Shown here: piece by piece, positions 11,863 to 27,558 of the stretch
How the letters are laid out: every line of letters starts with the position of its first letter
Position numbering within the stretch: the first letter of the stretch is position 1
Origin: a virus
Reading direction: 5' to 3' (one strand)
UHGV virus genome: UHGV-1805288
DNA length: 27,558 nucleotides
Translations under genes and position numbers: made by a program
Notes under the pieces: model-generated
Database searches by the model: none
The model's input: only the letters and a program-made list of their open reading frames with translations
Told to the model about the DNA's origin: nothing

Positions 11863-12135
11863 TTAAAAAGCGCTTTCTTCTTCTTGTAATCTAATTTTTA
11901 CATCATCAATTGGAACTAATTCGTATTGATAAGTAGTACAAAACAATGGTTTAATACGACAAGTGCCCAAATCTGCAGAACACCATAAATAAATACCTTT
12001 ATAACGTCCACGTCTATTTTTATAAACTGACATTTTAAGGTTTGGAGTAGCAAATACATTGGTATTTAATACTTTGTCTAATTTAACTAAATCATTATCA
12101 GTTACATTTAATAGAATTGCGCCATAATCTACTTT
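11863..12135 (-). CDS. dnaB: replicative DNA helicase DnaB-like, exon 2 (C-terminal 90 aa)
   Basis: Frame from 12135 reads KVDYGAILLNVTDNDLVKLDKVLNTNVFATPNLKMSVYKNRRGRYKGIYLW...EEESAF then TAA 11863..11865. It matches the DnaB C-terminal region (compare E. coli QDADLIMFIYRDE...IIGKQRNGPIGTVRL). Confidence 0.7.
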   Translation of the reverse strand, partial: KVDYGAILLNVTDNDLVKLDKVLNTNVFATPNLKMSVYKNRRGRYKGIYLWCSADLGTCRIKPLFCTTYQYELVPIDDVKIRLQEEESAF

Positions 12136-13315
12136 CTTTACTACCTTATATCTCTATAAGGAATAGACTATATCTTTACCATGCTTATTAAAATAAGTTT
12201 AGGTAGACCGTACTTCGAGATTAAATCTCTACTCTCCGCCACGAGATAGTCGTTGAACCTTGCTCTGTTCGAGCCTGGGCTGCGCTGGTTGCCTAATTCA
12301 TTTAATTTTTAAAACATTCACGCTTAGGTTTGTTTCATCCTTACGTTGTAGTTTAAATGACTCTAAAGGGTTTCCCGCAATTCTCGGTCTGATAATCACT
12401 TGACGTTTCCATCAAGGACGACTGTTTCCAAAATTTTATATAATTCATATTTTCTATCTAGATGAATTTTACAAGAATCGTATAGTTGTTTTAATATATA
12501 ATAAGGTTTATTAGTACCACCACAGCGAATATAATAACTATTTTTATTATCATTAGCATTACGTTTTTCTAATTTTACCTCCCAATTTAATATACTACAT
12601 ATCCATAATAATAATTCTTGGGTTCCTTGAATACTAATAGTAAAATTATTATATTGAGATGTTTTTGAAATACTTCCATCTCCATCAAAATATCCTAAAA
12701 TGAATGGTAAATAAAATTCTTCAGAAATAATGGGAGGTTTTAGTATTAAACTTTTTCTTGGTACAATTCCTTTATTACTTAAATCATTAGACATTTTTTT
12801 GCTATTAAGAGTTAAGCGAGCCATTGGAGTATTATTAGAATAACCCTCATTTATAATATACGAATTAATTTTAGCATTTGTATTACAAAACTTCTAAAAT
12901 TTTTTTAAATGGGAAATATCTTTCTAATTGATATTAATTATAATTGAAGCATTATGTTCTCTTACATAATTACATCCATCAGCAGCCAAAAATCCTAGCC
13001 AATAAGCTTTTTCAGATGTATCAATTATTTCAAAAATATCATAATTTCCATTATATTTCTATGTGCGTTCTCGTAAAATAATATTTTCTTTATTTTCATC
13101 TAAAATACGTTTAATAGTTTTACGAGAAACCTAATAATAATCTCCAAGTTTTTGCTATGTCCAATTATTATTATATTTAGTTAATATATCATTAATTTGT
13201 TCTTGTGAAAATTCAATTTTTCTCATAGTTATCGCTCCTGTAATAGATTAAGGGATTATCCTCTAATCTATTTAAAAAACGATATAAATGAATTATAAAA
13301 TTTTGTCCAATCAGC
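12136..13315 (-). mobile_element. group I intron in dnaB, carrying a LAGLIDADG homing endonuclease ORF
   Basis: P-like AAUUGCGGGAAACCC (rc of 12368..12382). R-like CAACGACUAUCUCG (rc of 12242..12255) pairs with S-like AAGAUAUAGUC (rc of 12166..12176) as P7 GACUAU/AUAGUC. P9 hairpin CCUUAUA-GAGA-UAUAAGG (12144..12161). Candidate omega-G at 12136. Junction placed where exon 1 ...LRGAKSI joins exon 2 KVDYGAILL... to recreate the DnaB LRxSGSIEQDADL region. The 5' splice site is the least certain part (P1 lacks a U-G pair); boundaries could shift a few nt. Confidence 0.65.
12396..13226 (-). CDS. intron-encoded LAGLIDADG homing endonuclease (two motifs)
   Basis: ATG 13226..13224 with AGGAG upstream. 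Translation contains KAYWLGFLAADGCNYV and LPFILGYFDGDGSISK. Five in-frame TAG (13155, 13131, 13059, 12924, 12894); stop TGA 12396..12398. Track ORF 12396..12824 is its C-terminal piece. Confidence 0.85.
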
Positions 13316-14569
13316 AATAGATTTCGCTCCTCGCAATAAATTCTGGTCTGGAGTTTCTGAATCGACATATCCACCATTAAGCTGCGTTGCTGACATAATA
13401 AATATACCATATTGATTACATAAGTCTTTTAATTTTACAGATAACATAAATAGAATATTATCTTCACGGAGTTTAACTCCACCACTACGACGAGTAATTT
13501 CTTCAAGAATTTTCATACTTGTTTGAATATAATCAAAGAAAATATACTTTACATCATGGTCACGTAGAGCTTTTTTAATTTCATTCTCTACGTCCTATAA
13601 TGAAAAATCTGGTAGCTCTCGTAAATATAGAGGACTGTCTTTAATAATTTCCGCGGCCTTGTGAATACGTTCTTCTTCATCACCCTCATAAGTATTATTA
13701 AGAATATGTTCTTCATTTACATTAGCAAGAAACGCAAGCATCATAGTTTGCACTTCACTCTTATCTTGCTCTGTGGCGATAAATAAAACCGGTTCACTCA
13801 AACCATTATGAATCCATCCAAATGTTTCATCATAAATTTTATTACAAGCAATATAGCATGCATCTGCAACCATAGAACGAGTCTTACCAGTACCAGTAGC
13901 TGCGGACCGCAAATAAAATTTCTTTAATCGCGCACCACGAGTAATTGTATTTACCAATGGCCCATATAATGGACTTCCTGCTTCTGGATGTTCTTTAAGA
14001 TTATCTAATAGATCAAAGATTCCATCACCCGCTTGAATGGCCGCACCATCTACATTTTTTACATATTCATACTTAACTTCTTCAATTCTATCATCTACTA
14101 ATTGCGCTAAATGTTCTAATGAAGAGTTATCAAGATTATCTTCTTGCTTTTGTTTTTTTTCTACATCAAGAATATTATCAGGGTCATAAATAAATGATAC
14201 GTCAATACCATATTTATCATAAGCCCGTAACAATGACATTTTTTTCAAACGATTATAATAATAATCAAATGATAATAATTTAGCATTTTCAGAAACTTTC
14301 ATTAACCATTCTTCGCCTTTATTAGCATTAAAAATGCCTTCATATTTAGGGCGAGTAGATAAAAAATCAAGAATATTTTCTAATGAAACTTTCTCAGCGC
14401 CCAATTCATGAAGTTTATAAATAGCGCCAAAAACAATACGATGAAAATCATCATTAAAATCTTCATCAGTAATTACATATTTATCTGTATAATCCAATAG
14501 CTGGGGTGTGTTATATACACACCCTATAACTTGGGTGACAGCGGTAGAATCTACATATTTACTTCCCAT
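13316..14569 (-). CDS. dnaB: replicative DNA helicase DnaB-like, exon 1
   Basis: Track ORFs 13595..14593 and 13268..13516 share a frame, joined through TAG 13595..13597. Walker A LRSAATGTGKTRSMVADACYIA; H2-like KYIFFDYIQTS; ATQLNGG...NLLRGAKSI. Start most likely the ATG at 14569 (MGSKYVD...) with GAGGAGG 9 nt upstream. Exon 1 + exon 2 = 1527 nt = 509 codons. Confidence 0.8.
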
Positions 14570-15134
14570 CCGCGGGCGCCTCCTCTTCATCAAGGAATGA
14601 AAATAATTTTCTGCGATATGGTTGTCGCTTTGGTAGAGGAATAACTATTTCTATTACTTTTGGAACGTATTGTTGAATTTCTTTATCTTCATTTACTTGA
14701 TGAGCTAACCATAAATCGTAATAATAATTATAACTATCTTTATAAATATAGGGCACAATACCAATTCCGCCATTAGATTTTTCGATAGAATTGCCTTTTA
14801 CTTCATAAAAATATTTTAATGCTTTTAAAATACCAGAATAAGTATATTTATATTCATTAACATATTGATTAATCTATTTGCGAATCCGCGGATTAAGATA
14901 TTCCACTTGAAATAATTTCATAATATATTTTTCTAATTTCTTTTTATCTTCTTCTTCCTATTGAGCTTGTTCAATAGATTTTTTTTCAGCGGCGAGTTTT
15001 TCTAAATATTCTGGCTAATATTCAGGATGTTCACAATTGGTATGTGCATATCTATTACTACGAGGTTTAATATATTGATAAACTTCAGTATCAAATGTTT
15101 GCTAACAATAAAGACATTTTACATTGTGTGCTAT
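14559..15134 (-). CDS. hypothetical protein with N-terminal C2HC zinc-finger-like motif, just upstream of and overlapping dnaB (position suggests a helicase accessory role); start codon unresolved
   Basis: Frame open from TAA at 15138..15140 to TAA at 14559..14561 apart from 5 in-frame TAG. Translation (I)AHNVKCLYC-TAG-QTFDTEVYQYIKPRSNRYAHTNCEHPEY...YIYKDSYNYYYDLW...EEAPADGK. No in-frame ATG/GTG/TTG lies between the upstream stop and the first Cys; ATA at 15134..15132 sits 7 nt after AAAGGAGGAA. Track ORF 14559..14756 is its C-terminus. Confidence 0.5.
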
Positions 15135-17447: not shown

Positions 17448-18083
17448 TTAATTTACTAAAAACTCTCGCGCATATGGTAATGTTTCAATCCAATCACAAA
17501 ATGCTCGCCATTCAGGTAAGCGATGATCATGGCGCTATTTATAAATATTGCGCAAACAACGATAATTTGTAGTCATACGCGCGGTAAGTCTAAATCCAGC
17601 AGGATTAGAATAAAGAATTTCAAGATATCTACGTTTTGCTTCTTCTTGTAGCTAATTCCGTAGATTTTCATCTTCTGGACCAAGAGCTTCAATACGAGAA
17701 ATGAGATTGTTGTAATCATTTACCTTTTCTCGCATAATATCAATAATGCGCTTATCCACATATTCGATATACTATTGATCTAAATCAAACTTAGTAATGC
17801 GGTGCATTGTTGATTGAGAAGAAACAAATTCAAGGAATCTATATCGCTCAGCTTCTACCCATGCTTTATTAGTAAAACAAAGGTCAAAATTGACTCGAAT
17901 ACCAGTCAGAAACTAATGATGTGCGGTATTACCAGTTTTCGTAGCATTTACTAAACGAACACCACGCTAGATATCCTTATCTTCTATAGGACGCATTTCA
18001 GCTTTTGTACGCATAGGATAACCAGAAGCAATAATGCTTTCTTCAAGGTCATAAATTTTTACATTGGATACAATCTAATTCAT
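17448..18083 (-). CDS. thyX: possible flavin-dependent thymidylate synthase (ThyX-like), tentative
   Basis: ATG 18083 with GAGG 6 nt upstream; frame open to TAA 17448..17450 apart from 6 in-frame TAG. Weak resemblance to ThyX blocks: KAWVEAERYRFLEFVSSQSTMHR (compare RQWFRHRIASYNELSGRY) and TNYRCLRNIYKQRHDHRLPEW (compare [20 protein letters not shown]). Confidence 0.35.
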
Positions 18084-18090
18084 TTATACC

Positions 18091-19065
18091 TCACTTAATA
18101 CTATAACCAAATTCTTTAGCTTTAAAATAATTCTACCAATAATCTTCTCGTGTATCAAGCTCTTCACGAGAACATTCTTCGATTACTTCAAAACTAAAAT
18201 TTTCAACTCCAAGAGCTAACATAGCAGGATAAAGTTTATTGCGGGTTGGCGTTTCCGCTCCAATACCACGCTTGATATGCTACTTCCATCTTGCTGCCAG
18301 GTCAACAGCCTATCCTACATAGCACATTTGGTTATCAAGATTAGTAATCTTATAAATACCAGTATGAGTTCCTGAACCAATTACTCGACCAATTAAATCA
18401 GTTGTTGGTTTTTCATAATAACTTTTCCAAATAACTTTATTTAATGTTTCTTTATCGCGTAAATGAGGTTCAATTGACCGTAGTAGTTTAATTTCTTCAA
18501 TATCCACAGATGATAACTATAATTTATAAAAATTAGCTTGATTTTTAATTTCTTCAGTACGTTTAGCTGCTTCAATAGCCGCGTCAACTTCACGAGTTAA
18601 TTTAAAAATCTTATCATCTAAAACTTCTAATTCTCTTTGTTTCTCTTGGATTAAATTTACTAAATCTTCTGAGCAACCAGCCATCAAGTTTTTATAACTA
18701 GATTTATAATCTTGTTTAGCCTACTCATATTTACTTTCTTCTAGCTCTAAATCGTGTGCGATATTAGTTCTAGCTAATTCCATAGACTATTTAAAAAATA
18801 CTTCCGCTGATTGCTTGGCCTAGTTTTGTAATAGGTCTAGACTATTAGAAACTTCTTCTCTTTGAATCTTTAATGAACTTAACTCTTTTGTGAGAGTTTC
18901 TTTTTCATCAACTAGTTGTTTATTAAAATTGTATAACTAACGATTCTCTGTTTCGATTTTCTAATCGTATCGCTGTGTTAATTTTAATTTGGGGCGTAAA
19001 ATTAAATACATTAATACACATCCAAGAATTAATGCGATACTACCTACAATTAAATAAATAGTCAT
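18091..19065 (-). CDS. protein with N-terminal transmembrane helix, coiled-coil middle and C-terminal GIY-YIG-like nuclease domain (DUF4041/T5orf172-like architecture)
   Basis: ATG 19065; frame open to TGA 18091..18093 apart from 9 in-frame TAG. N-terminus MTIYLIVGSIALILGCVLMYLILRP is hydrophobic; middle is K/E-rich heptad-like; C-terminus THTGIYKITNLDNQMCYVG-TAG-AVDLAARWK...REDYW-TAG-NYF. Track ORF 18310..18507 is an internal piece. Confidence 0.5.
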
Positions 19066-19705: not shown

Positions 19706-19734
19706 ATTATATCACAAATTTTTTATTTTGTCAA
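19706..19734 (-). promoter_or_regulatory. sigma70-type promoter, perfect TTGACA-N17-TATAAT (TG-extended -10)
   Basis: Plus strand attata 19706..19711 and tgtcaa 19729..19734, 17-nt spacer; the -35 overlaps the ligase stop codon. Confidence 0.6.
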
Positions 19735-20855
19735 AAAAGATCGGTTAAACGACAATCTTTGACATCTTTATCATCACGGAAACCCTTAAAAAAGGCATGA
19801 CGCAAAGTATGGTCATCCTTGTTTTTTTCCATACACTGAATAGCAACAACACGATTTAAATATTTTTCTGGATGCTTAGCAAAATCTGCTTTTAATTCAT
19901 CTGTAAGACCTGATGATACTGTTCCAATTTCTATAATTTTATTATTATCATCATAAGCACCAAGTCGAATAGATGTTTTCCATCCATAAAAATAAGGTTT
20001 AGTAACAGGTTCCATTGGAGTTTTAATCATTACACATCCAGCATCATTTAAATATCTACCATGGTAAAGATCACCACTCATAGTTTCAATCCAATATTCC
20101 CAAGTATTTAATTCTTTGCCATTATATTGTTTTGTAGCATCTTCAAACCCGATACAAATACAATCCAAAAAATCCATTTTCTTTACTTTAATTGAAGACC
20201 AAGCAGGTCGTTTATCAGGAGCATACACAGCATCTCGTTTTTTTAAAACAACACCCTCTTCACCCGCATTGAGAGCAGCTGCTGTAAACTCTTGAATATC
20301 ATCTTCTACGCTTTTGGCCAATTCTAAATAATTATATTGTTGTAAATTAAACTTATTCCAAATTTTTGTAAGAATTTGATATCTAACCCATGCACCTTCA
20401 TTTTGTAAATCTACACCATTATATTTAATAACATCATGTAGATAAAAATGAATTAAACCGCTTGTTTGCTGTCTAGTAATAGCTTCATCACTCAGACAGC
20501 CCATAATTTTTGTCACATCTTTTGAAGTTTTTCTAGGATAATAAATTTCACCAATCAAGATAGTGCCTGCTGGTAATTCGGTAAATGCTTCTTTAATATG
20601 AGGAACATTTGCTAATTTTTCAGTAAGAATACCAGTTGTTTTACTTACATTGCGACTAAATAAATAATCATAATGTTCAGTTTTTTCATACTGATACCAA
20701 TATCCATCCTTTTTTAATTCAGCAAAATATTTGCCACTATTACATACAGATGGAAACATATTTTCTTTACCATCAGGCAATTTCCAAATTTTCATTGCTT
20801 GGATACACTCCGCTTCAGGAGCATATTTATCAAGTAATTCTTTTGAAAAACTCAT
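19731..20855 (-). CDS. ATP-dependent DNA ligase
   Basis: Track ORF, 374 aa, no in-frame TAG. Motif I AELKKDGYWYQ (KxDG), motif III ILIGEIYY, motif IV EGVVLKK, motif V SIKVKK. ATG 20855 with AGGAAAAG upstream; stop TGA. Confidence 0.85.
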   Translation of the reverse strand: MSFSKELLDKYAPEAECIQAMKIWKLPDGKENMFPSVCNSGKYFAELKKDGYWYQYEKTEHYDYLFSRNVSKTTGILTEKLANVPHIKEAFTELPAGTILIGEIYYPRKTSKDVTKIMGCLSDEAITRQQTSGLIHFYLHDVIKYNGVDLQNEGAWVRYQILTKIWNKFNLQQYNYLELAKSVEDDIQEFTAAALNAGEEGVVLKKRDAVYAPDKRPAWSSIKVKKMDFLDCICIGFEDATKQYNGKELNTWEYWIETMSGDLYHGRYLNDAGCVMIKTPMEPVTKPYFYGWKTSIRLGAYDDNNKIIEIGTVSSGLTDELKADFAKHPEKYLNRVVAIQCMEKNKDDHTLRHAFFKGFRDDKDVKDCRLTDLF

Positions 20856-20881
20856 AATTTCTTTTCCTATCTTTATATATT

Positions 20882-20910
20882 ATTATACAAAAAGTTTTTT
20901 GAAAAGTCAA
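20882..20910 (-). promoter_or_regulatory. sigma70-type promoter (TTGACT-N17-TATAAT) upstream of the ligase
   Basis: Plus strand attata 20882..20887 and agtcaa 20905..20910, 17-nt spacer. Confidence 0.55.
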
Positions 20911-20916
20911 GTGTTA

Positions 20917-20942
20917 GGTGGCGAAGAACTCGCTTCACCACC
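20917..20942 (-). terminator. GC-rich hairpin after gyrA (terminator or RNA-stability element)
   Basis: ggtggcgaag-aactcg-cttcaccacc (10-bp stem) just 3' of the gyrA stop at 20949; no clear U-tract follows, so termination efficiency is unclear. Confidence 0.35.
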
Positions 20943-20948
20943 CTTATA

Positions 20949-23333
20949 TCAAATCTTAGTAATAGATTTTACATTACCAGTATTAATAAGCGCATTACCC
21001 AATCCGCCACGAGTTCCAATAGGAATATCTTTGGCAGAAATACAAATAGTAGTTTTTTCACCAATGATTAAAATATTATCATCATCAGAAATTAAAGTAC
21101 CACCAATAATACGCTTTTCTGTACTATCTACTTTATATACAGAACTACCTTTCCCTCCACGTCTTTGAACAGGATATTCACTAAGAGGGATTTTCTTGCC
21201 GAGTCCGCAATATGAAAATACAGCAAGAGTATCATTTGTATCTCGGATAGGTAAAGCTGCAACTACTTCATCACCTTCTTTAAGGGTAATAGCCTTAACT
21301 CCTGTACTTACACGACTAGCCGAAGACAAATCTTCAGTAGCAATATGAATAGCCATACCATTTTTAGTAAGAATAAGTACATCTTCATTTTTAATCAAAG
21401 ATACTGAAGCTAGACTATCTCCATCACGGAAATGAGTTGCAATAAGTCCACTCTTTTTAGTATTGATATATTCACTGAGCGCAGTCTTTTTAATTAAACC
21501 ATTCTTAGTTATAAACAATACATATTCCGCTTGGGTATCTTTATAAATAGAATACATAGTAGAAGGCTGTTCATCAGCGCTCATTTTAGTCAAAAGTTTA
21601 ATAGATGTTCCAAGAGAAGCATTAGTACCCACAGGAATATTATTTACTAATAACCGATACATTAAACCCTTATTACTAAAAATCATAAGTGAATCAACAG
21701 TATTTGTGCGTAGTACACAAGAAGTAATATCATCTTGTGACTTTACTCCCTTACCATTGCGCTTCTGAGTGCGAAAACTCGTGGTGGGAATACGCTTAAT
21801 GGTGCCACCTTCAGTCATTACAACTACACATTTCTCAGGTTCAACATATACAGTCTCTTTTTCTTCTTTTGGAATTGTATAATTAGTAAGTTTAGTGCGG
21901 CGCTCATCACCATAATTTTTCTTTAATATTTTAATTTGCTCAATTAAAACATTATCTCTATGGTCTTTATCATTAATAATTTTTAAACATTCAGCAACAA
22001 TTTCTTCATTTTTACGTTTTTCATCAACTAATTCATTTTTATCAATACGAGTTAACCTTGATAACTTCATATCAAGAATAGCATTTGCTTGAACTTCATC
22101 AATAGATAAGAAATTAATTAGTTTATTGCGCGCATCATCTTTATTAGCTGATTGTTTAATTAATTCAATTACTTCATTAATTTTATCAATAGCTGCGAGT
22201 AACCCAACTAAAATATGGATACGAGTTTCCGCCTTTTCTTTGTCAAATTTAGTTGCGTTAAGTAATACATTAGTTTGATGGTCAACATAGGCTTTAATAA
22301 GAGTCTTTAATGAACATAATTGCGGAGTGCCATTAATAATGAAATTCATATTATAAGAGAGAGTAGTTTGTAAATCAGTAAGCTTAAAAATAGTTTCAAG
22401 CGCAGAATTTACATCTATACCTTTTTTAATGGTGAATACAAGTTTATTATTACCAATACTACTTTCATCATCAAAATCTTCAATAAATTTTTCTAAAATT
22501 TCAATATTTTTATTGATATCTTCCTTAATCTTATTGCGATAAGTACGATAAGGAATGGAAGTAAATGTAATTACTCGATCCTTAATTTCATAATCACCGC
22601 GCACTTTAAGAGAAATTGCTGATTTACCCGTATCATAAGCCACATAAATATCTTTTTGATTAATAATTATGCCGCCCAGAGGAAAATCAGGGCCAAGAAT
22701 ATATTTCATTAACTCTTGGGTATTAATTTCACCATTAGCTTGAATATAAGCAATAATACCATCACAAACTTCAGAAAGATTGGCGGGTAAACTATTATGG
22801 CTCATAGAAATACCAATAGCTTCTCTACCATTTACAAGAGCATTAGGAAATAATGCTGGAAGAATGATTGGCTCCATAAATTCACCATTATAAGTTTCTT
22901 TCATAGGAACAACATTCTTTTTAAATGAATTAAACATTAAGTCCGCATACTTACTAGGCTTAGCCTCTGTATAGCGGCTTGATGCAACCATTGAGTTATC
23001 TTCTTGGGTCCCCAAAGCACCTTGACCTTGAATAAGAGGATAGCGCATTAAATAATCTTGTGCCATCTTATAAAGAACACCATAACAACTAGCATCACCA
23101 TGGAAATAACTAGTCATAAGAGTAGAGCCAACTAAACTGTTACATTTCTTAGTTTTACTTTTATTAGTCATTTTAAGATAGTCTTCCATTGTCCAAAGAA
23201 TTTTGCGCTGAGCACTTAGAAGACCATCTTCTGCGTTAGGAATTGCGCGATCAGTAAGCACTTCCTCAGCATAGGTAAGGAAATTGTCTTTAGCTTCATC
23301 TAAAATATCAACTTCTGTAATATAATTTTCCAT
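20949..23333 (-). CDS. gyrA: type IIA topoisomerase subunit A (GyrA/ParC-like)
   Basis: Track ORF, 794 aa, no in-frame TAG. QRKILWTMED...YFHGDASCYGVLYKMAQDYLMRYPLIQGQGALGT...SSRYTEAK contains the active-site Tyr region. ATG 23333 with AAGGAG upstream. Confidence 0.9.
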   Translation of the reverse strand: MENYITEVDILDEAKDNFLTYAEEVLTDRAIPNAEDGLLSAQRKILWTMEDYLKMTNKSKTKKCNSLVGSTLMTSYFHGDASCYGVLYKMAQDYLMRYPLIQGQGALGTQEDNSMVASSRYTEAKPSKYADLMFNSFKKNVVPMKETYNGEFMEPIILPALFPNALVNGREAIGISMSHNSLPANLSEVCDGIIAYIQANGEINTQELMKYILGPDFPLGGIIINQKDIYVAYDTGKSAISLKVRGDYEIKDRVITFTSIPYRTYRNKIKEDINKNIEILEKFIEDFDDESSIGNNKLVFTIKKGIDVNSALETIFKLTDLQTTLSYNMNFIINGTPQLCSLKTLIKAYVDHQTNVLLNATKFDKEKAETRIHILVGLLAAIDKINEVIELIKQSANKDDARNKLINFLSIDEVQANAILDMKLSRLTRIDKNELVDEKRKNEEIVAECLKIINDKDHRDNVLIEQIKILKKNYGDERRTKLTNYTIPKEEKETVYVEPEKCVVVMTEGGTIKRIPTTSFRTQKRNGKGVKSQDDITSCVLRTNTVDSLMIFSNKGLMYRLLVNNIPVGTNASLGTSIKLLTKMSADEQPSTMYSIYKDTQAEYVLFITKNGLIKKTALSEYINTKKSGLIATHFRDGDSLASVSLIKNEDVLILTKNGMAIHIATEDLSSASRVSTGVKAITLKEGDEVVAALPIRDTNDTLAVFSYCGLGKKIPLSEYPVQRRGGKGSSVYKVDSTEKRIIGGTLISDDDNILIIGEKTTICISAKDIPIGTRGGLGNALINTGNVKSITKI

Positions 23334-23344
23334 TAATAATCTCC

Positions 23345-25240
23345 TTACACAAAATTAAAACCAAGGGTTGTAGCATTTTCATAAATATACTGCTTACGAG
23401 GATTCACATTAGGCCCTTCAAGAATATCAAGAAGTTTAACTGTAGCCTCAGCATCACTAACAGTTAAGCGCTTATAACGCTGATTATCAAAACAAATCTC
23501 CTTGAGGGTGGCCGCATTCAGCTCACCGAGACCTTTCGCACGCAAGAGGTCATAAGAACCTGTATGACTAGCTTTCCAATCGTCAAGTTCCTTTTCACTA
23601 TAACAAAAATATTCTTTGTCTTTTTGTTTGATAATATACAGCGGAGTTATAGCTCGATATAATTTACCTGCTTCGACAAGGGGTCTCATATAAGTATAAA
23701 AGAAGGTAATTAATAGTAACTCAATAGCCGCGCCATCTGAATCTTGATCTGAAGTAATAATAATTTTATCAAAATTCATCTTATTGACATCAAAATTATT
23801 ACCAAATCCAGCGCCAATTACTCGAATAATATCACTAATCTCCTGATTAGCTAAAAGTTTTTCAAGAGATTGTTTTAGAGGACTAATAATTTTACCTCTT
23901 AAAAGGTAAATACAATCAGTCTTTACATTACGAGCTTCAACCGCTGAAGTAGCTGCTGACTTGCCCTCAACTAGAAGTAAATTGCGTTGAGAAGGGTCTT
24001 TATTAACACAATCAAAAAATTTATCACTAATAGCCATTTTAGCCTTTAAACCTTTTTCTTTAGGCTGACGAACAGCTTCCTTAGCCTTTTTAGCTTTCTC
24101 GCGTGCGGTTCGTGCTAATAAAGCTTTATCAATGATTGCTTTCGCATCTTTTGGGTTACTATTTAACCAGACTTTTAAATCTTTAGAAACCAATCTTTGA
24201 ACAGCGGTTCTAGCTTCACTACTGGATAAAACATCCTTAGTCTGACCTGAAAATACTGGATCAGGCATAATAAATGAAAGGACGAGACTTAAACCTTCTT
24301 TAAGCTCTTCACCAGTAATATTACTATCTTTATCTTTCAAAAGTTTATTATCTCGCGCGTATTCATTAATCGATTGAGTAAGTGCGGTGCGGAAACCAGT
24401 TAAATGAGTCCCACCACTATTGGGAATTGAATTTGTATAGAGTTTATAATTATCATTATAACTCTCATTATATAACATAGCAATTTTAACACCAATTCTA
24501 TCTTCCATATTTTCAGTATAAAAAATTGATGTTAATTTCTTTTTATTCTTATTAATATCTTCAATATAATCAAGGATACCATGTTGAGAAGTAATTACTT
24601 CTTCGGGTTTATCCTTGTATTTAAATTTAAATGTAAGACCAGGAGAGAGATAAGCTAACTCTTGAATTTGATTTCTAAGAGAAGTGTAATCAAGCTCAAT
24701 AGTTTCTTTAAAAATTTCAGCATCTGGTAAAAACTTTACCCAAGTACCAGTTTCTTTTCCAGCCCATTTTTCTTCTTTATAATCAATAAGTTTACCACGA
24801 ACGAATGAAGCAACTGCGTGTTTACCATCACGAAATGATACAACTTGAAAATGTTCAGATAAGGCATTAGTAGCTTTCGCACCAACACCATTCATACCAC
24901 CTGAAGTATTATAACCAGTTTTACCATTGCTATCAAACTTAGCACCAGTATGAAGCTTAGTATAAATATTTACAAGTGTTTCACTACCATCTTTCGCTTT
25001 GCCAAATGGCACACCACGTCCATTATCACGAATTTCAACATTATTATCTTTATCAATTATAATATCGCATTCAGTGCAATGACCATTTAAATATTCATCT
25101 ACACAATTTGAAATAATTTCAAGCGTAATATGTTTGATACCATCCGCGCCAATCGAGCCGATATACATACCAGGTCTGAGTCGAATCGCGTCAATACCCT
25201 CAAGAGTTTTTATTGATTTTACACCATAATCTTCTGACAA
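23345..25240 (-). CDS. gyrB: type IIA topoisomerase subunit B (GyrB/ParE-like)
   Basis: Track ORF, 631 aa, no in-frame TAG. GHKL ATPase motifs (LEGIDAIRLRPGMYIGS, NGRGVP, GGMNGVGAKA) and TOPRIM (LLLVEGKSAA, DQDSDGAAI). TTG start at 25240 with GGAGGAGG upstream. Confidence 0.9.
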   Translation of the reverse strand: MSEDYGVKSIKTLEGIDAIRLRPGMYIGSIGADGIKHITLEIISNCVDEYLNGHCTECDIIIDKDNNVEIRDNGRGVPFGKAKDGSETLVNIYTKLHTGAKFDSNGKTGYNTSGGMNGVGAKATNALSEHFQVVSFRDGKHAVASFVRGKLIDYKEEKWAGKETGTWVKFLPDAEIFKETIELDYTSLRNQIQELAYLSPGLTFKFKYKDKPEEVITSQHGILDYIEDINKNKKKLTSIFYTENMEDRIGVKIAMLYNESYNDNYKLYTNSIPNSGGTHLTGFRTALTQSINEYARDNKLLKDKDSNITGEELKEGLSLVLSFIMPDPVFSGQTKDVLSSSEARTAVQRLVSKDLKVWLNSNPKDAKAIIDKALLARTAREKAKKAKEAVRQPKEKGLKAKMAISDKFFDCVNKDPSQRNLLLVEGKSAATSAVEARNVKTDCIYLLRGKIISPLKQSLEKLLANQEISDIIRVIGAGFGNNFDVNKMNFDKIIITSDQDSDGAAIELLLITFFYTYMRPLVEAGKLYRAITPLYIIKQKDKEYFCYSEKELDDWKASHTGSYDLLRAKGLGELNAATLKEICFDNQRYKRLTVSDAEATVKLLDILEGPNVNPRKQYIYENATTLGFNFV

Positions 25241-25782: not shown

Positions 25783-25811
25783 ATTATACCATAAATTTAA
25801 AAATTTGTCAA
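25783..25811 (-). promoter_or_regulatory. sigma70-type promoter, perfect TTGACA-N17-TATAAT, upstream of the RNase H-gyrB-gyrA string
   Basis: Plus strand attata 25783..25788 and tgtcaa 25806..25811, 17-nt spacer. Confidence 0.6.
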
Positions 25812-25834
25812 ATTTTATTGAGCTACAATAAAAT

Positions 25835-25863
25835 TTGACAGAAGGAAAAATTTTCAGTATAAT
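25835..25863 (+). promoter_or_regulatory. plus-strand sigma70-type promoter, perfect TTGACA-N17-TATAAT, back-to-back with the minus-strand promoter
   Basis: Plus strand ttgaca 25835..25840 and tataat 25858..25863, 17-nt spacer. No protein-coding ORF follows on the plus strand. Confidence 0.5.
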
Positions 25864-25907: not shown

Positions 25908-25963
25908 AAGAGAAAACAAAATTGGGGTCATAACTACGTTATGACCCAATTTTGTTTTCTCTT
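25908..25963. terminator. long near-perfect hairpin, probable bidirectional terminator
   Basis: About 27-bp stem with one bulged G and a 3-nt loop, centred near 25936. It overlaps the holin-like stop codon (25962..25964); the 3' arm is U-rich when read on either strand. Confidence 0.6.
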
Positions 25964-26339
25964 AGATGGTTGGCTCGTCTTCTTCAGCCTCTGTATTTAC
26001 TTCATATTCAATATCAGTATCAGTAGTCGCTTCATCATCAGTATAATAACCAGAATTATTACGATAATTTTCATAAGCAAGGTCTAATTCTCGCATCACT
26101 GATTCATATTTTACACCATCTTTAGCATTTTCAACAGTTGATTTCTTATAATAATAAACTTGACTTACACCATAAGCAGCCCAAGGAAGGCTAGCGCTAG
26201 CAGTAAGCCAAGGAAGAGAACCAATATAACCACTATAAATACAATAAAATGCCAAAGCAATATAAGCTAGTGTAGAAATCCAAATTAATGCAGATTCTTG
26301 AATTAAAAGAGTTTTTGAAAACTCAAGTTTCTTTTTCAT
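25962..26339 (-). CDS. holin-like small membrane protein (two predicted transmembrane segments, acidic C-terminal tail)
   Basis: Track ORF, 125 aa. Hydrophobic stretches LIWISTLAYIALAFYCIY and SLPWLTASASLPWAAYGV; tail rich in D/E. ATG 26339 lies 2 nt after the endolysin stop, with the SD (AGGAGG) inside the endolysin's last codons. Confidence 0.45.
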   Translation of the reverse strand: MKKKLEFSKTLLIQESALIWISTLAYIALAFYCIYSGYIGSLPWLTASASLPWAAYGVSQVYYYKKSTVENAKDGVKYESVMRELDLAYENYRNNSGYYTDDEATTDTDIEYEVNTEAEEDEPTI

Positions 26340-26341
26340 TC

Positions 26342-27448
26342 TTATTCCTCCTTAAATAATCTATATAATAAGACTATTAATTCTTCACGAGTAATAAAAC
26401 TTTTATATCGCATATTACCCTTAGTATCACCTTGAATAATTCCTTTATTTTCCGCCCATTTGCGAGCATCCACTGACCAAGAGCCAGGGTCTTTAGTAGC
26501 TAATTCTTTAAGGTAAACCGCCATCTAATTATTAAATGTTTGCTATTCTTTTGTTGTTACTGTTGGAGTAGTAGGTTGTGGTGTTGAAGGCACTTCAGTT
26601 ATGGTGTCTTCAATTTTAGTAATATACTATAAGGAAACCCACCCCTTATCAGTCTAACCCCAACCATTATTTTCTGCGGTAATAGTTATTAATGTTCCCT
26701 AGGGATAACTATATACTTTTGTAAATGTAGTGCCAGGGCCAGAGCGCACGTTTAAGGAAGATGCCACAGTTTTAGCTTGATATTTTACTTTAGTCGATGT
26801 TGAAATATTATTTAATAATAATTCTACATCATCACGCACATTATCCATAGTTTTACCATATTTTTTAAACCAATGTAAAACATCACCATGATTACTACCA
26901 TATCCAAGTTTATAACTATCTGCGTGACATAGGATAGTGGGGATATTAGTTGTGCTTACTTTTACTGTTGCTTTTGGATTAATATTATAAATTAAACATA
27001 AATAAGCTGTTAATTCACAGGCTTCTTTATAAACAGCATTAAAATAAGTTTCATCAAGGAGATTATCCTCACATATTTCAAATTGTATCCAGCCTGTATT
27101 ACAGCTACCTTTAGAACCAGAACCGCAACCCCATGGGCGATAATTCCATGGCATAGTCTATATGGTAGTAACAGTGCCATCAGCTAATTTACCTATAAAA
27201 GCATTTAATCCACTCTATTGGGTTGTTGAATTATAATCAGTTTTAGCAGTATTTTTACCTATTTTTTGAATAAGTGTTTTATAATTTTTATCTGTGATGC
27301 TAGGCTAAACATAACGTTTAAGGTTAGGATTATTAGCTCCAGTGCTATGCCATAAAATACCTTTAATATTCATTACTCTTGTGCTCTTATAACATGTGCT
27401 ATTGGTCATTATACATTCAAGAGGCGGATTATTTTTTGAGTATTTCAT
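26342..27448 (-). CDS. endolysin: N-acetylmuramoyl-L-alanine amidase domain + SH3b-like domain + C-terminal SLH domain
   Basis: Track ORFs 26699..27154 and 26342..26524 share a frame with the region up to ATG 27448 (AAAGGAG upstream); 8 in-frame TAG, stop TAA. Amidase-like GILWHSTGANNP...NTGWIQFEICED...CHADSYKLGYGSNHGDV; SH3-like SLNVRSGPGTTFTKVYSYP-TAG-GTLITITAENNGWG; PT-rich linker; SLH-like SWSVDARKWAENKGIIQGDTKGNMRYKSFITREELIVLLYRL. Confidence 0.75.
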
Positions 27449-27558
27449 TATTTTGTCTCCTTTCTTAATATATTTTTATTTAATTTTTTAATTAAATTTG
27501 CCGGTTTTATAATTATTTTCTTGTTGGCATACGTATTGTAAAAATTTTTTGCGTAGGA

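What the first reader, a model, noticed from the sequence alone, without database searches (positions are those of the whole stretch)
25962..27448. Lysis cassette with an SLH-domain endolysin suggests a host that anchors proteins via SLH domains
The endolysin combines an amidase-type catalytic domain, an SH3b-like domain and a C-terminal S-layer-homology domain, and is followed by a translationally coupled holin-like gene. SLH domains bind secondary cell-wall polymers, so the host is probably a Firmicutes-type bacterium with SLH-anchored surface proteins; I cannot narrow it further. Strong Shine-Dalgarno sites (AAAGGAGG) and sigma70-type promoters throughout the window fit that. Eight TAG in the endolysin against none in the holin is also worth noting.
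Basis: partly seen in the sequence, partly recalled or inferred. Interest (0 to 1): 0.55.

Follow-up and report, generated by a model that had tools for sequence, protein, structure and literature searches.

The report
Gut phage lysis cassette, SLH-tailed endolysin
This is an ordinary phage cell-bursting gene set, from a gut phage that reads the stop codon TAG as glutamine; its wall-cutting enzyme ends in a single S-layer-homology (SLH) repeat, a wall anchor reported for phage lysins only in 2025-26, which points to a Clostridia host.

Summary
Window 26342-27448 (-) is a 368-codon endolysin gene with exactly eight in-frame TAG codons. Two nucleotides downstream lies a 125-codon membrane-protein gene (25962-26339) with no TAG.

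- **Code.** TAG means glutamine. Two of the eight TAGs align with a nearly invariant Gln in standard-code bacterial homologs.
- **Domains.** Amidase_2 and SH3b pass Pfam thresholds. SLH does not (14-18 bits against 20.8). Deeper tests still show the last ~45 residues are one genuine SLH repeat.
- **Repeat number.** There is one repeat, not the canonical three. The closest characterised relatives are LysBT1 (2025) and the Paenibacillus LysPt enzymes (2026), whose single SLH tail binds the cell surface and, in LysBT1, trimerises.
- **Holin.** The holin-like protein matches no curated family. It sits next to homologous endolysins in at least 16 loci, including standard-code prophages.
- **Third gene.** A Phage_lysozyme2 gene starts the cassette. 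Only its last 36 codons lie in the window.
- **Host.** The host narrows to Clostridia, most likely Oscillospiraceae-like.
- **TAG contrast.** The "8 TAG vs 0" contrast carries no information for the holin. It has only two Gln codons, and a relative's holin homolog carries four TAGs.

Verdict: a new member of a known kind, of modest interest.

The parts
27448..27558 (-). 3' end (36 codons plus TAA) of a Phage_lysozyme2-type (PF18013) cell-wall hydrolase gene, the first gene of the lysis cassette. Its stop overlaps the endolysin start (TAATG).
   Evidence: The translation SYAKNFYNTYANKKIIIKPANLIKKLNKNILRKETK* is identical to the end of the 167-191 aa PF18013 gene in relatives L003 and L087-L089. 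In many homologs (for example P0003) this domain is fused to the amidase.
26342..27448 (-). Endolysin gene: 368 codons plus TAA, with 8 in-frame TAG read as Gln. It has no signal peptide.
   Evidence: P0002 is a 96% identical full-length relative.
26801..27448 (-). N-acetylmuramoyl-L-alanine amidase catalytic domain (residues 1-216; Pfam Amidase_2 match at residues 27-175). H34, E124, H175 and D189 are invariant.
   Evidence: Pfam 42.1 bits; PHROG endolysin families at 1e-33. Foldseek hits to AmiA, AmiE, PlyL, PlyG and LytA. E124 aligns with the catalytic E90 of PlyL. Invariant columns among 120 homologs.
26612..26792 (-). SH3b domain (residues about 219-279). It is an optional wall-binding module, absent from most homologs.
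   Evidence: Pfam SH3_3 31.5 bits at residues 230-276. PDB 2kq8 E = 8.7e-7. All-beta model with pLDDT above 90. SH3b fold hits.
26555..26605 (-). Pro/Thr-rich flexible linker (residues 282-298).
   Evidence: This is the only segment with pLDDT below 50 in the AF2 model. The sequence is EVPSTPQPTTPTVTT.
26345..26551 (-). C-terminal module (residues 300-368): a lead-in helix (300-318) followed by one SLH repeat (about 323-366) with W325/W331, GIIQG and TREE motifs.
26347..26353 (-). Shine-Dalgarno AAGGAGG for the holin-like gene, embedded in the last codons of the endolysin gene.
   Evidence: Read directly from the sequence.
25962..26339 (-). Holin-like gene: 125 codons plus stop, no TAG. It has a basic N-terminus, one strong TM (about 16-38), a second weakly hydrophobic aromatic segment (about 41-63) and an acidic tail (18 D/E against 6 K/R).
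   Evidence: Hydropathy. 1439 homologs, all unnamed. No Pfam, PHROG or NCBIfam family. Conserved next to endolysins.
25915..25960 (.). Bidirectional intrinsic terminator hairpin (core 25925-25947) that closes the lysis operon.
   Evidence: The fold is -28.9 kcal/mol, z = -7. It is conserved in relatives, with variation in the loop only.

Best explanation
This is the lysis operon of a TAG-to-Gln recoded phage. Contigs carrying the identical holin reach about 190 kb, and the host is a Gram-positive gut Clostridium-class bacterium, most likely Oscillospiraceae-like.

**Genes.** There are three co-oriented genes:
1. a Phage_lysozyme2-type hydrolase, mostly outside the window;
2. a zinc amidase endolysin with two wall-targeting modules, SH3b and a single C-terminal SLH repeat;
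3. a small membrane protein that acts as the holin.

**How it works (inferred).** The holin permeabilises the membrane, and the signal-less endolysin then reaches the wall. The single SLH repeats of three endolysin molecules assemble into the three-pronged SLH spindle, as shown for LysBT1. This spindle docks on a wall polymer or on peptidoglycan, and the amidase cuts the MurNAc-L-Ala bond. The eight TAG codons stop endolysin translation until the phage's code switch is active, as proposed for recoded lysis genes in general.

**Shown here:** gene structure, code 15, the amidase and SH3b domains, SLH homology of the tail, conserved endolysin-holin pairing, and the Clostridia distribution of relatives.

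**Inferred:** trimerisation, the ligand, hole formation, TAG-based timing, and the exact host.
For: **Code 15.** TAG codons 48 and 97 align with Gln in 72/74 and 73/74 standard-code bacterial homologs. ORF coverage supports the same reading.

**Amidase.**

**SH3b.**

**SLH tail.**
- The 60-aa tail finds 7224 representative proteins. Of the 147 top hits that re-matched the tail-module profile, 73 carry 3 or more tandem repeats. Sampled ones score 100-227 bits on Pfam SLH.
- A profile of 31 tail modules hits the Sap SLH structures 6bt4 and 3pyw at E = 1e-5, and also SbsB.
- Pfam SLH hits 11 of 31 members, best E = 4e-8.
- hhalign against canonical repeats gives 99.3%, E = 4e-20.
- The AF2 model shows helix, extended loop, helix.

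**Precedent for function.** The single SLH tail of LysBT1 mediates cell binding, and the enzyme trimerises (PMC12285257). Five single-SLH CBDs label Paenibacillus cells (bioRxiv 10.64898/2026.09.23.753664).

**Holin.** Homologs lie directly beside homologous endolysins in L007, L008, L027, L032, L057, L059, L066, L013, L058 and Dulem virus 33.

**Operon.** TAATG overlap, a 2-nt gap with an internal SD, and a terminator after the holin.

**Host.**
Against: - The window's own SLH score is below Pfam's cut-off.
- TRAE is TREE here.
- No multimer model or binding data exist for this protein.
- The holin-like protein matches no known holin family. Its second hydrophobic segment is weak, and its tail is acidic rather than basic.
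- The phage is 31% GC, whereas most SLH-tailed prophage loci from Oscillospiraceae are 45-58% GC, so the family-level host call is uncertain.
- The two recoded low-GC relatives are assigned to Oscillospiraceae and Lachnospiraceae only through MAG binning.
- No suppressor tRNA lies in the window or in about 20-kb flanks of relatives.
Confidence: 0.78

Rival explanations
1. The C-terminal module is SLH-derived but is not a wall anchor. It serves only as an oligomerisation or stabilising domain, or binds peptidoglycan directly, so it says nothing about SLH-anchored proteins or pyruvylated polymers in the host.
For: In LysBT1 the SLH tail also raises stability and oligomerisation, and its ligand could be stripped by EDTA, which does not release SCWP. 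Some SLH modules bind peptidoglycan directly. The family has an extra lead-in helix and TREE/TREQ instead of TRAE. The protein already has an SH3b wall-binding domain.
Against: The residues used for ligand binding (W, GIIxG, T-R-x-E) are nearly invariant across the family. The module sits at the extreme C-terminus behind a flexible linker, as CBDs do. It is combined with different catalytic domains: amidase, M15 peptidase, CHAP and lysozyme2. Single-SLH tails label cells experimentally.
Confidence: 0.12
2. The 125-aa membrane protein is not the holin. It is another lysis-associated membrane protein (an antiholin or lysis regulator, or a membrane-depolarising factor), and the true holin is encoded elsewhere.
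For: No holin family matches in Pfam, PHROGs or NCBIfam. There is only one clearly hydrophobic TM, and the C-terminal tail is acidic. Borges et al. describe lysis-cassette TM proteins of uncertain role in recoded phages.
Against: In the relatives examined, no other small TM gene lies in the cassette between the flanking terminators. The pairing with the endolysin is conserved in unrelated standard-code prophages. The size, basic N-terminus, TM pair and charged tail fit class II holins.
Confidence: 0.15
3. The TAG asymmetry (8 in the endolysin, 0 in the holin) is a designed regulatory split: the holin is made under the standard code, and the endolysin only after the code switch.
For: The endolysin is significantly TAG-enriched (8/15 Gln, P = 0.009). 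All 8 TAGs are kept in a 96% identical relative. Recoded lysis genes are a reported pattern.
Against: The holin has only 2 Gln codons, so P(0 TAG) = 0.60. The holin homolog in recoded relative L013 carries 4 TAGs, while the one in L058 carries none. Both genes lie in one operon ending at a single terminator.
Confidence: 0.1
4. The host is not a monoderm Clostridium. It is another SLH-using lineage, for example diderm Negativicutes, whose outer-membrane proteins carry single SLH domains.
For: Single-SLH proteins are typical of diderm lineages (background). The phage's 31% GC does not match most Oscillospiraceae loci.
Against: No Negativicutes genome appears among the 80 best GTDB loci. The best phage matches are to Oscillospirales/Oscillospiraceae phages. 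No spanin-like gene is present in the cassette. SD use is Firmicutes-like.
Confidence: 0.05

Closest known systems
LysBT1, prophage endolysin of Brevibacillus thermoruber WF146 (PMC12285257, 2025)
   Same: It has an N-terminal Amidase_2 (NALAA) domain, a flexible linker and one C-terminal SLH repeat with W, GIIxG and TRAE-type motifs. The SLH tail mediates cell binding, and trimerisation into a three-prong spindle is proposed for it.
   Different: The window protein has an SH3b domain inserted between the amidase and SLH, an extra conserved helix before the repeat, and TREE instead of TRAE. It comes from a TAG-recoded phage of anaerobic gut Clostridia rather than a Bacillales prophage.
LysPt1/7/9/10, single-SLH phage endolysins of Paenibacillus thiaminolyticus (bioRxiv 10.64898/2026.09.23.753664)
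   Same: [quoted passage not shown] The isolated tails bind cells once the S-layer is removed.
   Different: They come from Bacillales hosts. I have no evidence that the present host has an S-layer. The catalytic domains are different or unspecified.
Canonical 3xSLH anchoring modules (B. anthracis Sap, PDB 3pyw/6bt4; P. alvei SpaA)
   Same: It is the same repeat family (profile E = 1e-5 to Sap). The fold is likewise helix-loop-helix, and the ligand-contact motifs are shared.
   Different: There is one repeat per chain instead of three, at the C-terminus of a lytic enzyme rather than in a secreted surface protein.
PlyL/PlyG and AmiA/AmiE Amidase_2 enzymes
   Same: They share the catalytic fold, with the zinc ligands and catalytic Glu conserved.
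   Different: Sequence identity is only about 15%, and the wall-binding domains differ.
Recoded lysis cassettes of gut phages (Borges et al., bioRxiv 10.1101/2021.08.26.457843)
   Same: This is a TAG-recoded phage predicted to infect a standard-code Firmicute. The lysis gene is enriched in the recoded stop, and TAG use among replication genes is variable.
   Different: Membership in any of the named clades (Jade, Sapphire, Agate and others) was not tested. The lysis operon here sits inside the replication and nucleotide-metabolism region.

Membership tests
Pfam SLH (PF00395) / SLH repeat superfamily | Score at or above the curated Pfam gathering threshold (20.8 bits) | tested here: not met
   14.3 bits in the whole protein and 17.9 bits for the isolated tail. 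11 of 31 family members match at E<=1, best E = 4e-8.
Pfam SLH (PF00395) / SLH repeat superfamily | Significant sequence homology to bona fide SLH repeats | tested here: met
   phmmer hits to 3xSLH proteins down to E = 5e-20, and sampled hits were confirmed as SLH at 100-227 bits. Profile against PDB Sap E = 1e-5. hhalign 99.3%, E = 3.7e-20.
Pfam SLH (PF00395) / SLH repeat superfamily | Conserved Trp, GIIxG and TRAE ligand-binding motifs | tested here: met
   W325 and W331, GIIQG (336-340) and TREE (354-357) are present. W, G, T, R and E are invariant or nearly invariant in 31 modules. The A-to-E change in TRAE is the only deviation.
Pfam SLH (PF00395) / SLH repeat superfamily | Two helices joined by an extended loop | tested here: met
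   AF2 model: H323-334, loop 335-353, H354-366, pLDDT about 88-94. No fold search of the isolated domain was possible.
Canonical SLH anchoring module | Three tandem SLH repeats forming a pseudo-trimer | tested here: not met
   There is one repeat only. Homologs have one or two.
Single-SLH endolysins (LysBT1 type) | Amidase catalytic domain, linker and a single C-terminal SLH repeat | tested here: met
   There is an extra SH3b domain between the two.
Single-SLH endolysins (LysBT1 type) | SLH-mediated trimerisation and cell-surface binding | not testable with these tools
   No multimer prediction or wet assay was available. Inferred from PMC12285257.
Amidase_2 (PF01510) N-acetylmuramoyl-L-alanine amidase | Pfam score above threshold, amidase fold, zinc ligands and catalytic Glu | tested here: met
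   42.1 bits against 26. Foldseek hits AmiA, PlyL and PlyG at probability 1.00. H34, E124, H175 and D189 are invariant in 120 homologs. E124 aligns with PlyL E90.
SH3b (PF08239 SH3_3) | Pfam score above threshold and SH3b fold | tested here: met
   31.5 bits against 27. PDB 2kq8 E = 8.7e-7. SH3b structural hits.
Holin (functional class) | Small protein with at least one TM and a charged C-terminal tail, encoded beside the endolysin | tested here: met
   125 aa, TM at about 16-38 plus a weaker 41-63 segment, charged tail. Adjacency is conserved in at least 16 loci.
Holin (functional class) | Membership in a described holin family | tested here: not met
   No hit in Pfam, PHROGs or NCBIfam for the protein or 14 homologs, apart from one chance-level Phage_holin_3_6 hit at E = 0.032.
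Holin (functional class) | Timed membrane hole formation | not testable with these tools
   This needs expression and lysis assays.
Genetic code 15 phage (TAG = Gln) | In-frame TAGs at positions where standard-code homologs have Gln | tested here: met
   Codon 48: Q in 72/74. Codon 97: Q in 73/74. Codon 78: Q in 31/74, the commonest residue.
Genetic code 15 phage (TAG = Gln) | Phage-encoded suppressor tRNA(CUA) or release-factor gene | tested here: inconclusive
   None was found in the window or in the fetched flanks of relatives. Most of the roughly 190-kb genome was not seen.

The most novel reading that the evidence does not exclude
The window's tail represents a very large family of endolysin-type single (or double) SLH repeats with a conserved lead-in helix, which annotation largely misses. 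The family is used as an obligately trimerising wall anchor by phages of gut Clostridia, especially Oscillospiraceae. It is paired with an undescribed holin family of more than 1400 members. In recoded phages many copies are hidden as 60-150 aa fragments because gene callers stop at TAG. If so, SLH anchoring would be a main determinant of lysin targeting, and a usable host marker, for a dominant and poorly cultured part of the gut microbiota.
Probability: 0.3. Interest if true: 0.5.

Novelty: new member of a known kind. Interest (0 to 1): 0.35.

Why it matters
- **Annotation gap.** Single-SLH endolysins were first reported in 2025-26, in Bacillales only. Here the same design appears in a stop-codon-recoded gut phage. 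Through its homologs it also appears in many Clostridia prophages, where standard annotation misses it (Pfam flagged SLH in 1 of the 120 listed homologs).
- **Host clue.** The tail gives a practical host clue for uncultured phages: its presence is enriched in Oscillospiraceae.
- **Probe or lysin engineering.** The tail is a candidate binding module for lysins or probes aimed at hard-to-culture gut anaerobes.
- **Holin family.** The conserved partner protein is a candidate new holin family.
- **Limits.** None of this changes how phage lysis is understood. The finding is mainly a correct and somewhat refinable annotation.

Tried and rejected
- A word-index search with the 85-aa tail found only the window's own 60-aa fragment, so the sensitivity was too low. 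The full HMMER scan replaced it.
A single-sequence model of P0002 was useless, with pLDDT 39.7. The alignment-based model worked.
- The Foldseek search of the whole model returned only amidase and SH3b hits.
- Megablast of 25 kb of the window against cultured phages gave only a 59-nt homing-endonuclease hit. The IMG/VR scan found no relative above 70% identity in the amidase. tblastn of the topoisomerase subunit gave only about 33% hits with no host signal. No close reference genome was therefore found.
- Rfam gave nothing at gathering score in the window. Around the terminator it gave only chance miRNA-like hairpin hits. I rejected the idea that the hairpin region hides a suppressor tRNA or ribozyme.
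- tRNA scans of the window and of relatives' flanks found none.
- Cluster-member names added only "Clostridium sp." MAG and "Caudoviricetes sp." labels.
- A regulatory reading of "0 TAG in the holin" was considered and rejected on codon counts and on relative L013.
Full report
**1. Observation**

On the - strand, an ORF starts at ATG 27448 and ends at TAA 26342-26344. Read with the standard code it breaks into pieces. Read through TAG it is one 368-codon frame with exactly eight TAGs, at codons 48, 78, 97, 250, 265, 274, 302 and 308, and no TAA or TGA.

The whole window behaves the same way. With TAG as sense, ORFs of at least 100 codons cover 27.3 kb; with the standard code they cover 18.7 kb.

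Two nucleotides after the endolysin stop, ATG 26339 opens a 125-codon ORF that ends at 25962 and has no TAG. Its AAGGAGG lies in the last endolysin codons, 7 nt upstream. A long hairpin terminator follows at about 25915-25960. The finding's coordinates are therefore exact.

**2. TAG means Gln**

I aligned the protein with 74 endolysin ORFs from standard-code bacterial genomes. Codon 48 aligns with Q in 72 of them, codon 97 with Q in 73, and codon 78 with Q in 31, the commonest residue there. The other five TAGs fall in variable or optional regions.

**3. Catalytic and SH3b domains**

- Pfam gives Amidase_2 at 42.1 bits (cut-off 26) and SH3_3 at 31.5 bits (cut-off 27). PHROG endolysin and amidase families match at 1e-33 to 1e-27.
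- An AlphaFold2 model of the 96% identical relative P0002, built on 120 homologs, has mean pLDDT 87.7.
- Foldseek finds AmiA, AmiE, PlyL, PlyG and LytA for the N-terminal domain and SH3b domains for residues about 219-279.
- H34, E124, H175 and D189 are invariant in 120 homologs. E124 aligns with E90 of PlyL, the residue mutated in PDB 2ar3.
- There is no N-terminal hydrophobic segment, so export should depend on a holin. This is read from the sequence.

**4. The C-terminal domain**

Pfam SLH scores only 14.3 bits in the full protein and 17.9 bits in the isolated tail, below the 20.8 cut-off.

Deeper tests do support it.
- A full HMMER scan of 1.84 billion representatives with the last 60 residues gave 7224 hits at E<=1e-3.
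- 147 of the listed top hits re-matched a profile of the tail module. Of these, 64 carry one copy at the very C-terminus (50-60% identity), 10 carry two copies, and 73 carry three or more tandem copies at 30-40% identity.
- Sampled multi-copy hits score 100-227 bits on Pfam SLH.
- A profile of 31 tail modules hits the crystal-structure sequences of the B. anthracis Sap SLH domain at E = 1e-5, and also SbsB and another SLH protein.
- hhalign of that profile against the canonical repeats gives 99.3% probability, E = 3.7e-20. The repeat set was chosen through the query, so this test is not fully independent.
- The motifs that contact the ligand in Sap and SpaA are present: Trp, GIIQG, and TREE in place of TRAE. 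They are nearly invariant in the family.
- The model shows helix 323-334, an extended loop and helix 354-366. An additional conserved helix (300-318) and a disordered Pro/Thr linker (282-298) precede them.

The tail is therefore one genuine SLH repeat, not the usual triple module.

**5. The module is a mobile endolysin tail**

Among the 121 proteins returned by the two endolysin searches, 115 carry the tail and five of those carry two copies. The tail is joined to several catalytic arrangements: amidase alone, amidase plus SH3b, Phage_lysozyme2 plus amidase, M15 peptidase plus amidase, CHAP plus amidase, and an M15-like enzyme alone. Only one of the 120 listed homologs had a precomputed Pfam SLH label, so routine annotation misses it.

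**6. Known counterparts**

LysBT1 from a Brevibacillus prophage has an amidase and one C-terminal SLH repeat, and was published in 2025 as the first SLH endolysin. Its tail raises stability and mediates cell binding. The enzyme trimerises, and the tail is predicted to form the three-prong spindle (PMC12285257). A 2026 preprint adds four Paenibacillus phage endolysins and one hydrolase with a single C-terminal SLH tail; these label cells after the S-layer is removed. The window protein has the same design with an extra SH3b domain. Trimerisation and the ligand are inferred here, not tested.

**7. The holin-like gene**

The 125-aa protein has a basic N-terminus, a strong TM at about 16-38, a weaker aromatic segment at 41-63, and an acidic tail with 18 D/E against 6 K/R. 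It has 1439 homologs, all unnamed. No Pfam, PHROG or NCBIfam family matches it or 14 relatives.

Its first 80 or so residues are conserved, and the gene lies directly beside a homologous endolysin in several settings:
- the recoded relatives L013 and L058;
- standard-code prophages of Oscillospiraceae, Acutalibacter, Colidextribacter and others;
- the 40-kb Dulem virus 33.

A conserved partnership across unrelated phages is the main argument for a lysis role. Hole formation itself is inferred.

**8. A third gene**

The 111 bases at the window end (27448-27558) encode the last 36 residues of a Phage_lysozyme2 (PF18013) protein. Its TAA overlaps the endolysin ATG (TAATG). In relatives this gene is 167-191 codons long. 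In many homologs the domain is fused to the amidase.

In relative L088 the cassette is bracketed by terminators, with no sigma70-like promoter before the first gene. In the window, the genes after the cassette start from a perfect consensus promoter.

**9. TAG use**

Across 22 genes, TAG supplies 22.5% of Gln positions. The endolysin uses it for 8 of 15 (P = 0.009). GyrB, the topoisomerase A subunit, ligase and the polymerase parts use it rarely or never. This fits the published pattern of recoded lysis genes and variably coded replication genes.

The holin has only two Gln codons, so zero TAG has a probability of 0.60 by chance. The L013 homolog has four TAGs and the L058 homolog none.

**10. 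Host**

- SD-like motifs precede 14 of 22 genes, which fits Firmicutes.
- The best phage matches to the amidase are Oscillospirales and Oscillospiraceae phages (43-47% identity); Lachnospiraceae phages are more distant.
- Of 80 GTDB loci with homologous endolysins, nearly all are Clostridia. The few others are MAG contigs.
- Fifteen loci carry a strong SLH tail, and 11 of them are Oscillospiraceae, including Flintibacter, Colidextribacter and Pseudoflavonifractor. Among the other 65 loci, 12 are Oscillospiraceae (Fisher P = 9e-5).
- In Colidextribacter sp. OB.20, a signal-peptide 3xSLH-GH25 muramidase lies next to the prophage endolysin. This lineage therefore does use SLH anchoring.

There are caveats. 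The phage is 31% GC, while most of those loci are 45-58% GC. The two low-GC recoded relatives (contigs of 149 and 151 kb) are tied to Oscillospiraceae and Lachnospiraceae MAGs only by binning. I put the class-level call (Clostridia) at about 0.85 and the family-level call at about 0.45.

**11. The phage**

The identical holin occurs on contigs up to about 190 kb, and close variants occur on many contigs of 187-198 kb. No close relative is in the cultured-phage collection or in IMG/VR. No suppressor tRNA was seen in the roughly 45 kb examined. Assignment to a named recoded clade was not tested.

**12. Verdict**

This is a real, correctly read lysis cassette. The finding is a new member of a recently described kind. 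Two side products of modest value are a widely missed SLH-tail family in gut phage lysins and an undescribed candidate holin family.

Noticed in passing
window 25783-25863: Two back-to-back perfect (12/12) sigma70 consensus promoters, one per strand, are conserved in relatives. The - strand promoter (with a TG-extended -10) precedes the RNase H gene. The + strand promoter points at the bidirectional terminator and would give an antisense transcript of about 90 nt with no Rfam match.
   Followed up: partly
window 306-5310 and 11863-14590: Replication genes are interrupted by homing-endonuclease ORFs. DNA pol III alpha is split into 2926-5310 (PHP, NTPase, finger) and 306-1730 (HHH_6), with a GIY-YIG ORF (1912-2730) between them. 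DnaB (13256-14590) is cut short at DnaB_C profile position 181/255 and is followed by a LAGLIDADG ORF (12396-13226) and a 56-aa ORF. No group I intron reached the Rfam threshold.
   Followed up: partly
window 7367-8209 (-): A second Phage_lysozyme2 (PF18013) protein, 280 aa with an N-terminal signal peptide, lies among the replication genes and is separate from the lysis cassette.
   Followed up: no
window 19731-25240 and 306-1730: GyrB-like, topoisomerase A, DNA ligase and the C-terminal polymerase part are completely TAG-free, with 11-19 Gln codons each. Neighbouring genes (RecJ-like 8261-10000, GIY-YIG 18091-19065 and ORF 17448-18083) use TAG for 47-67% of Gln. This gives a mosaic of standard-code and recoded genes within one replication module.
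   Followed up: partly
L088 8264-8350 and 10391-10421 (relative of the window): In a near-identical relative the lysis cassette is bracketed by intrinsic terminators. Only about 22 nt, with no sigma70-like promoter, separates the upstream terminator from the first lysis gene. This suggests read-through, antitermination or a phage-specific late promoter.
   Followed up: no
L013 (GTDB CALWOP010000177.1, 149 kb) and L058 (JAFZGJ010000195.1, 151 kb): Two large low-GC (32-33%) contigs binned into Oscillospiraceae and Lachnospiraceae MAGs are TAG-recoded phage sequences with the same endolysin-holin pair. They are probably whole phage genomes sitting in bacterial bins.
   Followed up: partly
top hits (P0127, P0131, P0140, P0143 and others): About 40 of the 64 single-copy hits are proteins of only 59-125 aa that end with the SLH tail. 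They are probably endolysin fragments created when standard-code gene callers stop at in-frame TAG, as with the window's own 60-aa ORF 26342-26524.
   Followed up: no
L009 (Flintibacter muris DSM 110149, NZ_CALPCP010000098.1, 2680 bp, coverage 159, 39% GC): A short, high-coverage, low-GC contig in an isolate assembly carries a 67% identical lysozyme2-amidase-SLH endolysin. It may be a phage or contaminant in that culture and could be a lead to a cultivable host.
   Followed up: no
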